DNA from: Eledone cirrhosa
Taxonomy: Eukaryota
NCBI GenBank assembly: GCA_964016885.1
Contig: OZ024741.1
Span: 97,340,001-97,404,000 of the forward strand
Length of the DNA stretch: 64,000 nt
Reading direction: 5' to 3'
The notes under the pieces are model-generated. The model saw only the letters and a program-made list of their open reading frames with translations, ran no database searches and was not told the DNA's origin. Positions within the stretch are counted from its first letter, which is position 1, and each line of letters starts with the position of its first letter. Below, piece by piece: positions 4,870 through 64,000 of this stretch. A program made the position numbers and the translations under genes.

Positions 4870-5595
4870 TTCGCTATTGAATATGCAAATCAGGCCGATC
4901 AGTCACTGTGCATTTTTGAAAATAGCATATATTTTAACTAGCTCTGACAGTTTGGCAAGTGAACAGTGAACTGTACTGATGAAGGGTGATACCCAGAAAC
5001 ATTAGTGTCTGCAGTTCTGTTCCTATGCCAACATAAGACCAAGAACGAGGTGTTCATTCTACTAACATTGCTATGAAATTGAGGTTTGTTTGCATAATTG
5101 CAAACGAATCGAATGTTATTAATATGCGAAAAACTCAGATAACATTTATTGTATTCAGCCATGTAGAGCGAAAACATTTTCTTTTTTATTTGAATTTGGC
5201 AAAGCCGGCCATTTATCGCTCGTATACACGAAACTAACTGGCCAGTCTGCTGATATGCAAATCTGGCTGATCAGTGGATCTGCTAATATGCAGATCTGAC
5301 TGATCAGCCAGTCTGCTATTATGCAAATCAGGCCGATCAGTCACTGTGTATTTTAGAAAATAGCATATATTTTCACTAGCTCTGACAGATTGGCAGGTGA
5401 ACAGTGAGCTGTACTGATAAAGGGTGATACCTAGAAACATTAGTGTTATGCAGTTCTGTTCACATGCCAACACAAGAGCAAGAATGAAGAGTTCATTCTA
5501 CTGACATGGCTATAAAATTGAGGTTTGTGTGCATAGTTGCAAACGAATCGAATAATATTATTAATATTCGAAAAACTCAGTTTACATTTATTGTA
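4870..5595 (+). mobile_element. Family B: diverged tandem dimer (~440-bp period) of an HHR-containing non-coding element
   Basis: 4881-5155 repeats at 5320-5595; third copy at 36680-37175; internal ~31-bp subrepeats with ATGCAAAT. Confidence 0.75.
4968..5017 (+). ncRNA. Type I hammerhead ribozyme (family B)
   Basis: gaactgta-CTGATGA-a-gggt/gat/accc-a-GAAA-cattagtg-TC-tgcagttc: intact core, stems I-III, GUC site. Confidence 0.85.
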
Positions 5596-5878
5596 TATAT
5601 ATATAGATATATATATACATATATATATATAAAATTTATTATAGTATGCATGTATACGTACATACATATATGTATACAGACGTACAGTAGCATGCACATA
5701 TATATATATATATACATATATACATACATGTGCATACAGGTACACATACATATATGCACGTATCAGTTTAGCGGCGCCAACGTCGCTTTGTTCGTTTGTA
5801 AACAAACTGAACAGCCTGAATTTATGCCATACGGTGTTAAGGCAACCACGTCACCTTTTTGTTCAACACTGACACAGG

Positions 5879-5923
5879 AACGATGTACTAGTTTCAAGCT
5901 TGTTAGCTATCATCAGCACCGTT
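5879..5923 (-). ncRNA. Type I hammerhead ribozyme (family A, inverted copy)
   Basis: Reverse complement of the motif at 6071-6115. Confidence 0.85.
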
Positions 5924-6070
5924 TACCCATCTGCCAGATAGTTGAACGTTCGAAAGTATATACTTTCCTTATGAAAATTAACGGCTGAGCAGCCTAATTT
6001 GCATATTGAGTGAGTTAAATCGGTCAGGCATACCGAACGTTCGAACGTTCAACTATCTGGCAGATGGGTA

Positions 6071-6115
6071 AACGGTGCTGATGATAGCTAACAAGCTTGA
6101 AACTAGTACATCGTT
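6071..6115 (+). ncRNA. Type I hammerhead ribozyme (family A)
   Basis: aacggtg-CTGATGA-t-agct/aaca/agct-t-GAAA-ctag-TA-catcgtt; palindromic stem III, GUA site. Confidence 0.88.
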
Positions 6116-6534
6116 CCTGTGTCAGTGTTGAACAAAAAGGTGACGTGGTTGCCTTAACACCGTATGGCATAAATTCAGGCTGTTCAGTTTGGTTACAAAC
6201 GAACAAAGCGACGTTGGCGCTGCTAAACTGATACGTGCATATATGTATGTGTACCTGTACGCACATGTATGTATATATGTATATATATATATATGTGCAT
6301 GCTACTGTACGTCTGTATACATATATGTATGTACGTATACATGCATACTTACATTTAAGTAAGTGCCATACTAAGAGTGAGAAATGAAATTTCATTTTCA
6401 TTTTGTTTCAATTTATCGTTTTCGGTATGCCTGACCGATTTAACTCACTCAATATGCAAATTAGGCTGCTCAGCCGTTAATTTTCATAAGGAAAGTATAT
6501 ACTTTCGAACGTTCAACTATCTGGCAGATGGGTA

Positions 6535-61207: not shown

Positions 61208-61348
61208 ATACCTAACTGTACCAAGGATTAAACACATTTTCCAATGTATATATATATATATATATATATATATATAAAGAAAAAGAGATGAAATCGAAAA
61301 TGCAACTGGAGTCTTATTTTTTTTTTAAATATATATATTTATTTGGTT

Positions 61349-61386
61349 CCTTTACCGGTTTCGCAATTCTTCTGCTTTTCAAAAGG
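61349..61386 (-). ncRNA. Hammerhead ribozyme, U3-A8 core variant (mirror copy)
   Basis: Reverse complement of 61441-61478 with one G-U pair in stem II. Confidence 0.68.
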
Positions 61387-61440
61387 TGAGTTGAGATGGA
61401 GGGTCTGTGAGAAAAACCACAGACCCTCCATCTCAACTCA

Positions 61441-61478
61441 CCTTTTGAAAAGCAGAAGAACTGCGAAACCGGTAAAGG
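61441..61478 (+). ncRNA. Hammerhead ribozyme, U3-A8 core variant
   Basis: cctt-TTGAAAA-gcag/aagaa/ctgc-GAAA-ccgg-TA-aagg followed by AATAAA. Confidence 0.72.
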
Positions 61479-64000
61479 AACCAAATAAATATATATATTT
61501 TTTTAAAAAATAAGACTCCAGTTGCATTTTCGATTTCATCTCTTTCTCTTTATACTTTCACTCGTGTAGGACAACTCGGTTATTTTTCATTTTGTAAAAA
61601 ACACCTCACTTTCTAATATATATATATATATATATATATATATATATATATATATATATATATATATGTGTATATATATACTTCCATAAACGCTGTCAAT
61701 TCTCTGGTATATTTATGGTGAATATGATCATTAAACACGAAGCGTTAATTTACCACTTAAGATTTATCATAAGTGTTCTCTTAAGAAAGCACAACATCAA
61801 GAGAACTAAACAGAAAAATCACCCACTTCATTCATGGGTGATGTTTTGATTGTTATCACAGTTTGCCCACGGTAAGAATATGATTGGAAAGATATATATA
61901 TATATATATTTATATATATATATATATATATATATATATATATATATATATATATAATTGTGTGTGTGTGTGTGTAAGTTTATATCCATATATGCATATA
62001 TATATATATATAAAATTAAGGATACTATTTATGGTTATGTATATACTAAAACTTTTTATAGTTATGTATATTTTAAACCCTAAACAGTGAAGGTCAGTAA
62101 TTAACTCCCCTTAATTACACACACACATACTTCTGGATAATAAACCGCTGTAAATTTTCGCAGCAGAATCAACCTATTCTATAAATTTGGATTAAATAAC
62201 ACCGAGCCGCAATAAGCTAAAATAATTTAATTTAATGCATCAAACATCCAATACGGAATAATCGTTACTTATGTGATGGATGTAAAAACCATAAATTACT
62301 TTTTCTGAACGTGAAAATGGTGGTGGATACGAAAACCATAACTTTCTTTTGCTTCTCCTTTTTATTTTTATTTTTATTTTTCTGCACACATACTTTTTTA
62401 TTATATACAAAAAATACCTTACCACTACAACCACGATAATACTCTTACTTACCCGCTTAAAGTACTTGTATTACATGTAACACTCTGCTACACAATAATC
62501 ATATATAAATGAGACACACTTGCATGCCCCACGTGTAACTAACGCATACACTAACTACTACATCTGAATAACAAACTATCCTCTTGCATTATCTGTGTTA
62601 ACTGCCGAATGTATCTTAATTTTGTTTTAATTTTAATTATGATTTTGATTTTGAATTTGAATTGCTATACAGAAATAGTATATGTCACTCCACTGTTCAT
62701 CAATATATATGTGTGTGTCTGTATGTCTCTTGCGTTGGAAAGGAGGTCAATTATGTGTACAAACATTGAAAAATGCTCCGGAGACGCCAAGCCTAGGTTT
62801 GGATGAAACACTTTAAGTGAATAAATGCTTTGAACGTAGCTTTGATTCTTGTGATTCTATATATATATATATATTTATAACCAAGAAAATATGCTCACTG
62901 TGAACGTCGAGAATATTATGTATTTTATTACATTACTGATGATTCCATTCTTTTCCGCTGTCGACAAAAGTGGAAATATACTTTTACTTGGGACGGTATG
63001 TACCTGGCAAATATAACAGGTGTGGTAAGTGTAAAGATGCAGATATAACATCCAGTTCATTCAAATTTTTTTTCAGGAAATGAATGTTTATGTAGTGATA
63101 AATCAGGCAGTCCAGATGATATCCTCGCCTGTTGAAGAACTACATTTTTATTAGCTCTGTCTCCCCCTCTCTATTTCTCTCTCACTTTATTTCGTTATAC
63201 TTATCCTCTCTCCTGAGATTTAGTGCACTCTCTCTCTTGCTCAGTTTCTTACTAATTCACAATCTCTTTTTCTCTCTCTACATGTCGCATACCCACAAAC
63301 GCACACACACACACACACACACACACACACACACACACACACACACACACACACACACACACACACACACACACACACACACTATCTCTTTCTCTCTCCC
63401 TCTCTATATATCTTACACCATGTATTTTATATCTTGAGAAATATAGTTTTTAAAAAAGTTGGTCCGATGTATAAATTAACTTCAATATCATTATACCATT
63501 TATTTGGTTTTGTTAAGGCCGGCAGTAAATATTATTATTGAGAAAAAGAAAATACTTTGTTGGATAATTGATATAGCCGCAATAGGTTATAAAGTCTGTG
63601 AAAAGGAATCATTTGAATGTATTCAGAGCATATTTGAGAAGTTTACTCAATGATGAACATGTAAAAGCTTAAAGTCCCGTTAGTAGTATTGGGTGACTTC
63701 GGGAACAGTAAGAGCAACAATACAGCAATCGAAAGTGAAATATTTAAATTAGGATAAATTGAGTTAATTTTTCACAAAACGTTATTAAAAAAAAGTTATA
63801 TTCTGAGTATAGTTGTTGAAATATAAGGGAAATAAAAGTATCTGTAATATATTTTCACATATTTGTAAACTCTATCCTTCCACTATATATCCGGCATAAA
63901 GCGTCTTCAGTTGAACGAGGTCATAATAACTGTACATAATTTAGTCACGATGTCAGCAAATTCTGGAAAGGGAATTAATTTTAATCGACTACATTACGTT

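What the first reader, a model, noticed from the sequence alone, without database searches (positions are those of the whole stretch)
4870..61615. A whole guild of unrelated hammerhead elements colonising (TA)n tracts
Seen: HHRs in at least seven sequence-unrelated families (4968, 6071, 8453, 18425, 22896/38639, 27317, 61441), plus a consensus-level one in family E, all in 64 kb. Nearly all begin and end in TA repeats, and several have AATAAA right after stem I. Established: Penelope pLTRs carry minimal type I HHRs. Inference: a TA-targeting PLE machinery mobilises a diverse set of short non-autonomous ribozyme RNAs, implying a very high genome-wide ribozyme density.
Basis: partly seen in the sequence, partly recalled or inferred. 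Interest (0 to 1): 0.75.

Follow-up and report, generated by a model that had tools for sequence, protein, structure and literature searches.

The report
Penelope ribozyme ends crowd TA repeats
Hammerhead-shaped RNA motifs, predicted to cut themselves, occur about 140 times per million bases in this animal genome and mostly sit in elements ending at TA repeats; some are cut-off tails of known Penelope-type jumping genes and others are non-coding repeats likely copied by those genes' enzymes, with a small shared hairpin as the likely start signal.

Summary
Observation largely confirmed. The window holds 12 type I hammerhead (HHR) motifs against 0.23 in shuffles. Six of the 8 named sites pass; 22896 is weak and 38639 fails. 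In 100 evenly spaced 10-kb genome stretches there are 143 hits (shuffles 2-7), about 4x10^5 genome-wide by extrapolation. Fixed 3' ends abut TA in 69 of 78 copies, against 9 of 78 for a SINE.

Sites 22896, 38639 and 61441 are truncated ends of RT+GIY-YIG Penelope-like elements (PLEs). Sites 4968, 6071, 8453 and 27317 are non-coding wrap-around units of 0.44-2.1 kb. Site 18425 is unresolved.

PLE HHRs, many families per genome, TA-targeting Hydra PLEs and retrozymes are all published. Not found in print: the density, selection on the core, a fixed U4A core in a young Hydra-like PLE, and an RCTCY...GAGY hairpin shared by Hydra-like PLEs and two non-coding families (13 of 22 pairs). This scan reported the same system in many other windows of this genome.

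The parts
4880..5593 (+). Family A: 440-bp non-coding unit, 1.6 copies in tandem; HHR core at 4976, predicted cleavage after 5009; second core near 5414 altered; TA only at 3' end; two ATGCAAAT octamers per unit
5643..7813 (.). Family B: two-armed insertion of a 466-bp non-coding unit; minus arm 5643-6037 (core 5916), plus arm 3.8 units (cores 6078, 6542, 7008, 7474); 100% identical copies on 8 contigs
8122..8196 (+). Family K stub: 3' end of a Hydra-like PLE
8416..8617 (-). Family C stub (HHR core 8505) of a 2,079-bp non-coding wrap-around unit; followed by 156 bp of unassigned DNA (8260-8415), then TA
9789..9936 (-). Family J stub: 3' end of a Hydra-like PLE whose pLTR carries a U3-A8 HHR
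17985..18314 (.). Older two-armed family G copy, no intact HHR hit
18380..18736 (.). Family D: two-armed, HHR core 18513 on the minus arm, tail on the plus arm with the RCTCY...GAGY hairpin; parent non-coding for at least 1 kb, coding status unresolved
20966..21633 (.). Older family B copy, core altered at 21091
21635..23094 (.). Family E1: 5'-truncated RT+GIY-YIG PLE on minus (coding 22092-22856), with 55-bp tail and inverted pLTR (weak HHR-like core 22900)
23178..23950 (.).
25646..27441 (.). Family F: two-armed insertion of a 1,291-bp non-coding unit; cores 25843 (-) and 27322 (+); hairpin after both fixed ends
36678..37174 (.). Older two-armed family A copy (core 36888, GAAA altered)
37296..37631 (.). 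Older family D copy in TG/CA tracts
37747..38192 (.). Two-armed family K stub (Hydra-like PLE end; family core CAGAAGA, U4A)
38251..39346 (-). Family E2: truncated PLE (GIY-YIG remnant 38955-39346), HHR-like core 38676 not intact, SINE-like insert at 38365-38555; shares 3' end with E1
58078..58237 (.). Two-armed family J stub
58455..58636 (.). Two-armed family K stub
58884..61230 (-). Truncated Neptune-type PLE (E3; GIY-YIG 60562-60855, Pfam PF01541 E=1.8e-7) with internal microsatellite; no HHR hit in its 3' region
61277..61615 (.). Family G: two-armed stub, U3-A8 HHR cores 61382 (-) and 61445 (+); 3' end of a PLE with Neptune-type linker and about 1.3-kb 3' UTR

Best explanation
The motifs are type I hammerhead folds in the 3' terminal repeats of several protein-coding Penelope-like element families and in non-coding tandem units that are likely copied in trans by the same enzymes, which would nick (TA)n tracts and start reverse transcription at two fixed internal sites just downstream of the ribozyme. 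Shown here: coding parents for E1, E2, G, J, K and the largest sampled family; non-coding wrap-around units for A, B, C and F; two fixed 3' ends abutting TA; frequent inverted second arms; constraint on the catalytic core. Inferred from published PLE biochemistry (PMC11167929): both-strand nicking and two internal start sites give the two arms and the one-sided tail, and strong 5' truncation leaves ribozyme-only stubs. Inferred here: the RCTCY...GAGY hairpin just past each fixed end is the Hydra-type start signal, which assigns C, F and probably D to Hydra-type enzymes; A and B lack it and their driver is unknown. The ribozyme probably cuts tandem transcripts to unit length as a dimer. Because copies carry the uncut site, the template is an uncut tandem transcript or a re-ligated circle; these data do not separate the two.
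For: Density 143 hits per Mb vs 2-7 shuffled. Positions 3/8 occur as C-G 99 and U-A 26 times, each of the other 14 combinations at most 4. Helix III fully self-complementary in 90 of 125 hits. Shared variants 1 in 55 core columns vs 58 in 360 flank columns (p=0.003), while private changes do not differ significantly (15/1327 vs 115/6597, p=0.12), in copies not chosen by similarity, 5 families. TA at fixed ends 69 of 78 vs SINE 9 of 78 and random 9.4%. Coding upstream on the same strand: E2 5 of 8, E1 35 of 57 (enriched by how loci were fetched), G 14 of 25 long copies, J, K and L. K parent: 713-aa ORFs, 150 matches at 97-100%, DKT, CxCX5C, HHR about 190 nt before the ORF. No PLE protein match in the A, B, C, F units. 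Hairpin after the short end in 13 of 22 pairs vs 0.16 shuffled, max 2 in 2000; repeated after the long end in K and F, and in 1 of 3 C copies; absent in G and E1, which are non-Hydra.
Against: No cleavage, expression or circle was observed. 5' ends do not pile up at the cleavage site (K 2 of 48, J 1 of 31, G 1 of 17; A 6 of 39 at a palindrome). In vitro, HHR mutants of an anole PLE still insert (PMC11167929). No empty site was found, so target versus tail is untested directly. The hairpin pattern was written after seeing the sequences and earlier notes, several of the 22 families are related, and 9 of 22 miss the strict pattern. A and B show no link to any coding PLE. Only 36 of 107 testable hits had an inverted partner. 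No tree was built for clade names.
Confidence: 0.72

Rival explanations
1. There are no true non-autonomous families: every HHR stub is the truncated 3' UTR of a coding PLE whose long copies were not sampled.
For: G, J, K and the largest family looked non-coding until long copies were fetched; their 3' UTRs reach 0.9-1.4 kb. D is still unresolved.
Against: A, B, C and F run from their 3' end straight into the next unit, giving closed periods of 440, 466, 2,079 and 1,291 bp with no PLE protein match. For C and F the junction rests on few copies.
Confidence: 0.08
2. The TA tracts are made or greatly extended at insertion (a slippage tail), not pre-existing targets.
For: No empty site was recovered. 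Plain 5'-truncated ends can lack TA (window 4880). TA tracts are very common (2,692 per Mb).
Against: Tandem junctions inside A, B, C, F and K have no TA tract at the positions where end copies join TA, so TA is not part of the unit. (TA)n preference is published for Hydra PLEs (PMC8557442) and AT-rich cleavage is shown in vitro (PMC11167929).
Confidence: 0.12
3. The non-coding tandem units spread as DNA satellites (unequal crossing-over or circular DNA) and the ribozyme is a relic of a PLE end.
For: Tandem arrays of up to 9 or more units. The preprint 10.64898/2026.07.22.740005 allows local satellite-type amplification and found cleavage in only 1 of 9 tested elements.
Against: Dispersed copies on many contigs with the same two fixed ends, variable 5' truncation and inverted arms; the core is constrained in B and C.
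Confidence: 0.06
4. The motifs are chance matches or by-products of fold-back (MITE-like) repeats.
For: Rfam lists no hammerhead. 6 of 131 sample hits came from one minisatellite and some singletons are weak. Minimum-energy folds seldom give the three-way junction.
Against: More than 30-fold excess over shuffles, 3-8 covariation, core constraint, and placement in PLE terminal repeats.
Confidence: 0.02

Closest known systems
Minimal HHRs of metazoan PLEs (Cervera and de la Pena 2014, PMC4209133; parts 1-2 of 4 read, with Results and Discussion)
   Same: Many consensus families per genome, mostly lone motifs tied to truncated PLEs, pairs on opposite strands 100-700 bp apart, U3-A8 core variant, extra base after A9, palindromic helix III, proposed dimeric action and circular template.
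   Different: Counts there are thousands per genome (about 2,000 + 1,300 in Schistosoma mansoni, 9,000 in Xenopus tropicalis); here about 4x10^5 by extrapolation with a different descriptor. No TA analysis, U4A family or shared hairpin in the parts read.
Hydra clade of C-terminal EN+ PLEs, including Hydra-1_Obim (Craig et al. 2021, PMC8557442; sections 3, 6, 11, passages and 3 supplement rows seen)
   Same: DKT, CxCX5C linker, no paired cysteines between GIY and YIG, HHR in pLTR, (TA)n insertion, inverted 5'-truncated copy, one-sided tail.
   Different: Tails here are mostly 72-97 bp in the cleanly resolved pairs (published 30-40 bp); RWR in place of RWK; unit slightly over 3 kb; K has a U4A core; no non-autonomous Hydra partners or start hairpin in the parts read. 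Their HHR supplement (file S2) was not examined.
Metazoan non-LTR retrozymes (Cervera and de la Pena 2020, PMC7229834, section 13 and passages; Li, Clavereau and Pollet 2026, bioRxiv 10.64898/2026.07.22.740005, parts 1-3 of 5)
   Same: Non-coding tandem units with a type I HHR, GC under 50%, co-existing with PLEs proposed as mobilisers; 16 HHR families in one coral genome.
   Different: C and F (2.1 and 1.3 kb) exceed the published 170-400 nt RNAs and the 51-972 bp consensus range; insertions are two-armed with PLE tails in (TA)n; a cis-signal shared with coding PLEs is seen; circRNA not tested here.
Anolis Poseidon PLE mechanism (Frangieh et al. 2024, PMC11167929; parts 1-3 of 4 read)
   Same: Two internal RT start sites downstream of the HHR define the tail; both strands are nicked and extended; AT-rich cleavage; start near a stem-loop.
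   Different: Their stem-loop is AC-rich and inside the ORF of one element; here one conserved 4-bp stem is repeated at both ends across many families. HHR cleavage was dispensable in vitro, yet the core is under constraint here.

Membership tests
Type I hammerhead ribozyme | Core CUGAnGA / GAAA / UH with three stems, stem I open | tested here: met
   12 window hits vs 0.23 shuffled; not met for 38639, weak for 22896
Type I hammerhead ribozyme | 3-8 Watson-Crick pair | tested here: met
   C-G 99, U-A 26, other 14 combinations at most 4 each
Type I hammerhead ribozyme | U at position 4 (family K) | tested here: not met
   A in 34 of 34 K copies; K is called hammerhead-like
Type I hammerhead ribozyme | Site-specific self-cleavage | not testable with these tools
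   5'-end pile-up test inconclusive
Hydra-clade PLE (families J, K) | Single ORF, RT then C-terminal GIY-YIG | tested here: met
   713-aa K ORFs; J is a truncated copy; domains read from motifs
Hydra-clade PLE (families J, K) | DKT in place of DKG; no GxKF/Y | tested here: met
   3 of 3 K ORFs printed; J copy too short to test
Hydra-clade PLE (families J, K) | N-terminal RWK motif | tested here: inconclusive
   RWR at the matching place, no exact RWK
Hydra-clade PLE (families J, K) | CxCX5C linker, no CCHH cysteine pair between GIY and YIG, CxxC and CxH around E and N | tested here: met
   each motif in at least 2 of 3 K ORFs and in J
Hydra-clade PLE (families J, K) | Insertion into (TA)n | tested here: met
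   J 25 of 29, K 15 of 17 fixed ends; empty sites not seen
Hydra-clade PLE (families J, K) | Placement in the Hydra clade of an RT tree | not tested
Neptune/Nematis-type PLE (E1, E2, E3, G) | CX2-5CxxC linker and two cysteines between GIY and YIG | tested here: met
   E3 and E1, G parent; clade not fixed by a tree
Non-LTR retrozyme (A, B, C, F) | Non-coding tandem unit with type I HHR, GC under 50% | tested here: met
   GC 0.36-0.40
Non-LTR retrozyme (A, B, C, F) | Unit of a few hundred bases | tested here: not met
   A 440 and B 466 fit; C 2,079 and F 1,291 do not, so C and F are only retrozyme-like
Non-LTR retrozyme (A, B, C, F) | Expressed as linear and circular RNA | not testable with these tools
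   needs RNA reads or northern blots
Non-LTR retrozyme (A, B, C, F) | No LTR, PBS or PPT | not tested
   no tRNA-primer search was run

The most novel reading that the evidence does not exclude
A twice-repeated RCTCY...GAGY hairpin is the clade-specific reverse-transcription start signal of Hydra PLEs, and it licenses non-coding ribozyme RNAs up to 2 kb, copied as circles, to ride on these enzymes into (TA)n. This gives the most hammerhead-dense genome found in the papers searched (about 4x10^5 motifs), including an active retrotransposon with a fixed U4A ribozyme core.
Probability: 0.4. Interest if true: 0.72.

Novelty: new variant of a known kind. Interest (0 to 1): 0.5.

Why it matters
How PLEs choose their RNA template, whether retrozymes are really moved by PLEs, and what the PLE hammerhead does are open questions in the papers read. 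This genome offers intact young PLE proteins, dozens of HHR families and a short candidate cis-signal shared by coding and non-coding elements, so trans-mobilisation can be tested in an existing in vitro assay. Constraint on the core suggests cleavage matters in vivo although it was dispensable in vitro. For annotation, many short TA-flanked fold-backs here are PLE ends, not DNA transposons or SINEs.

Tried and rejected
Rfam scan: no hammerhead among 150 listed rows, only repeat-driven miRNA matches.

Empty-site search by split alignments among fetched loci: dominated by self-family matches, no clean empty site in the parts of the output seen (both cut). Shared alignable 3' ends between non-coding families and coding PLEs: none. 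Pile-up of 5' ends at the cleavage site: absent except weakly in A. A-to-G editing scars, a lead from note e1-8803865: pooled A>G over T>C rate ratio 0.91 across 10 families, only B nominal at p=0.04; not supported in these families.

The idea that palindromic G spreads as a fixed unit: rejected, inversion points vary in unselected copies. Coding parent for D: not found in 30 pattern loci plus two extensions. One search included a LINE ORF by mistake, so its low-identity hits were not used. rows for B, D and E2 were dropped (low-complexity or wrong query end, or no copy reaching it). Six minisatellite hits in L192 were dropped. A newt satellite-2 snRNA-promoter parallel for the octamers is recalled and was not confirmed. 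The paper on dimeric PLE hammerheads (Lunse 2017, recalled) was not held.
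Full report
SETTING. The window is G000:C2:97340001-97404000 of a 3.0-Gb animal genome. Earlier notes call it probably an octopus; I did not test that. Family letters below are mine.

OBSERVATION. A first descriptor gave 9 hits against 0.06 in 200 shuffles. A second one, allowing U3-A8 and G3-C8 cores and bulged stem II, gave 12 against 0.23 (max 1) in 100 local shuffles, and 0 in reversed or complemented DNA. 22896 passes only the first; 38639 passes neither. Rfam listed no hammerhead among 150 of 186 rows shown. Ten of 12 elements checked have TA at both outer ends. 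AATAAA follows stem I in 3 of 6 window families.

GENOME-WIDE DENSITY. I took 100 evenly spaced 10-kb stretches, 60 from the four largest contigs and 40 from smaller ones. They hold 131 hits in 57 of 100 stretches, against 1-5 in ten shuffles; 6 of these are a minisatellite artefact and 9 come from one array. Dropping the 6 and adding the U4A core gives 143 (shuffles 2-7; bootstrap 109-180; about 111 separate insertions; 153 per Mb on large contigs, 128 on small). Scaled to 2,996 Mb this is about 4x10^5 motifs (3-5x10^5), an extrapolation from 0.03% of the genome. The hits fall into 31-39 flank clusters, 19 of 31 with two or more members (one cluster chains two families). Published counts: 126,247 in the axolotl and more than 6,000 in 16 families in Acropora millepora (PMC7229834), 9,000 in X. 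tropicalis (PMC4209133). Descriptors differ, so 'about ten times denser' is provisional.

ARE THEY RIBOZYMES? Positions 3 and 8 occur as C-G (99) or U-A (26); each of the 14 other combinations occurs at most 4 times. Helix III is fully self-complementary in 90 of 125 hits, the dimer-type design described in PMC4209133. In copies not chosen by similarity (families B, C, G, K, L), variants shared between copies hit 1 of 55 core columns and 58 of 360 flank columns (p=0.003), while private changes do not differ significantly (15/1327 vs 115/6597, p=0.12). This is the pattern expected if source elements need the core and inserted copies decay neutrally; flanks close to the core may carry their own constraints, and columns are not fully independent. 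Cleavage itself was not observed. 5' ends do not gather at the cleavage site, except 6 of 39 in A at a palindrome.

TA ASSOCIATION. 101 of 131 hits have (TA)5 within 200 nt downstream against 23.8% of random positions. At the fixed 3' ends in the unbiased sample TA follows in A 3/4, C 3/3, E1 14/15, F 1/2, G 8/8, J 25/29 and K 15/17 (69 of 78). A SINE-like control gave 9/78 and 13/103, random positions 9.4%, and a LINE-like family with an ATGT tail 8/20. TA is not part of the units, because tandem junctions lack it. No empty site was found, so 'target' rests on this and on published work.

WHAT THE FAMILIES ARE. Coding: E1 (22896) and E2 (38639) lie 0.2-0.3 kb behind GIY-YIG remnants, share their 3' end, and E1 has RT-bearing parents. 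G (61441) looked non-coding, but 14 of 25 long copies carry RT or endonuclease sequence ending about 1.3 kb upstream, 39-56% identical to a 796-aa PLE, with a CX4CxxC linker. K has intact 713-aa ORFs at 97-100% identity and its ribozyme, with A at position 4 in 34 of 34 copies, sits about 190 nt before the ORF. PMC3088659 (passages) mentions a natural U4C variant with low activity; I saw no U4A there. Non-coding: A (440 bp), B (466), F (1,291) and C (2,079) run from their 3' end into the next unit and match no PLE protein; first-look candidates for A, C, D, F and G number 1,955-3,883 each and are not copy numbers. B is 100% identical on 8 contigs. D is non-coding for at least 1 kb and unresolved.

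INSERTION FOOTPRINT. Families have two fixed 3' ends, mostly 72-97 nt apart in the cleanly resolved head-to-head pairs (others there were confounded by internal TA). 36 of 107 testable hits have an inverted partner upstream, and inversion points vary. Inverted copies and a one-sided tail are known PLE marks (PMC8557442), and an anole PLE nicks and extends both strands from two internal start sites that define the tail (PMC11167929). So the two-armed shape is explained by published mechanism.

LINK BETWEEN CODING AND NON-CODING FAMILIES. Their 3' regions do not align. Following a lead from earlier notes, I mapped the short end of 22 family pairs by TA position and tested for RCTCY within 15 nt followed by GAGY. 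13 of 22 match, 15 with a relaxed pattern, against 0.16 (max 2) in 2,000 shuffles and 1.6% of other offsets. The stem covaries (ACTC/GAGT, GCTC/GAGC, GTTC/GAAC). It is present in Hydra-like J, K, L2 and R and in C, F and D, and recurs after the long end in K, F and 1 of 3 C copies. It is absent in G and E1, which are not Hydra-like; G's parent was found only after this test, which gives a small independent check. Among the 9 strict misses, 2 match only the relaxed pattern, 2 have the motif further out because the short copy ended early, and one pair was invalid. The pattern is post hoc and several families are related, so the statistics overstate independence. A, B and a 467-bp family lack it and carry ATGCAAAT octamers instead (3 of 6 units; 0.1 per kb background), possibly a promoter element.

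MECHANISM. Shown: anatomy, coding links, fixed ends, TA, core constraint. Inferred: PLE proteins nick (TA)n on both strands and start cDNA just 5' of the hairpins; early termination leaves stubs. In K the second hairpin occurs after the upstream pLTR and is not part of an insertion's 3' end, so a full copy needs a tandem uncut transcript, a circle, or a template jump. A circle was proposed in PMC4209133; uncut RNA was the main substrate in vitro in PMC11167929. I cannot choose between them.

NOVELTY. Known: PLE HHRs, many families per genome, U3-A8, TA-targeting Hydra PLEs (Hydra-1_Obim), retrozymes as PLE dependants, two start sites. Not found in ten searches: an HHR census at this density, the shared hairpin, a U4A PLE ribozyme, or selection tests on PLE HHR cores. 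A recent octopus repeat annotation (PMC13282606, parts 1-2 of 3) does not mention ribozymes in the parts read. Subscription journals, Repbase and preprint supplements were not visible and may hold such data. The scan's own notes describe this system in many windows of this genome; they are leads, not support.

VERDICT. Real, abundant and mostly a known PLE/retrozyme system; new variant in scale and in a testable cis-signal. Interest 0.5.

Noticed in passing
window 4151-4870: Two HHR-like half motifs (cores 4300 minus, 4825 plus, the latter cut by element A) in a diverged repeat with a pyrimidine/CA-rich body; 68-84% matches in five other loci. Possibly an older Penelope-type end not tied to TA.
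   Followed up: partly
window 8629-9765: Truncated PLE with GIY-YIG-like remnant on plus (8822-9046), TA-flanked, no HHR hit; 70-89% matches in seven other loci.
   Followed up: partly
window 8260-8415: 156 bp of near-unique DNA with a 17-bp tandem repeat joined directly to the 3' side of element C; possibly captured at insertion.
   Followed up: partly
window 58884-61230: Neptune-type PLE whose 3' UTR contains a 1-kb TA/CA microsatellite and no detectable HHR; young family with 796-aa open frames.
   Followed up: partly
families A, B and L186:5602-6068: ATGCAAAT octamer in three non-coding units that lack the Hydra hairpin; resembles an snRNA-type promoter element (recalled, not confirmed).
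   Followed up: partly
window 10200-11540: Decayed reading frame that by eye resembles a restriction-like endonuclease non-LTR element, directly after the J stub; not tested.
   Followed up: no
window 1500-2431 and 16351-17031: LINE-like 3' ends with (ATGT)n tails; 8 of 20 sampled copies also abut TA, so microsatellite association is not unique to PLEs.
   Followed up: partly
L193 (G000:C3:255000001-255010000): Array of a 556-bp HHR unit (9 intact hits) with a compensatory GTTC/GAAC form of the hairpin.
   Followed up: partly
runs X1-X6: The 466-bp B unit is held at 70-86% of sampled words by runs labelled with four organism codes; if these are different species the family is shared and near-identical.
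   Followed up: no
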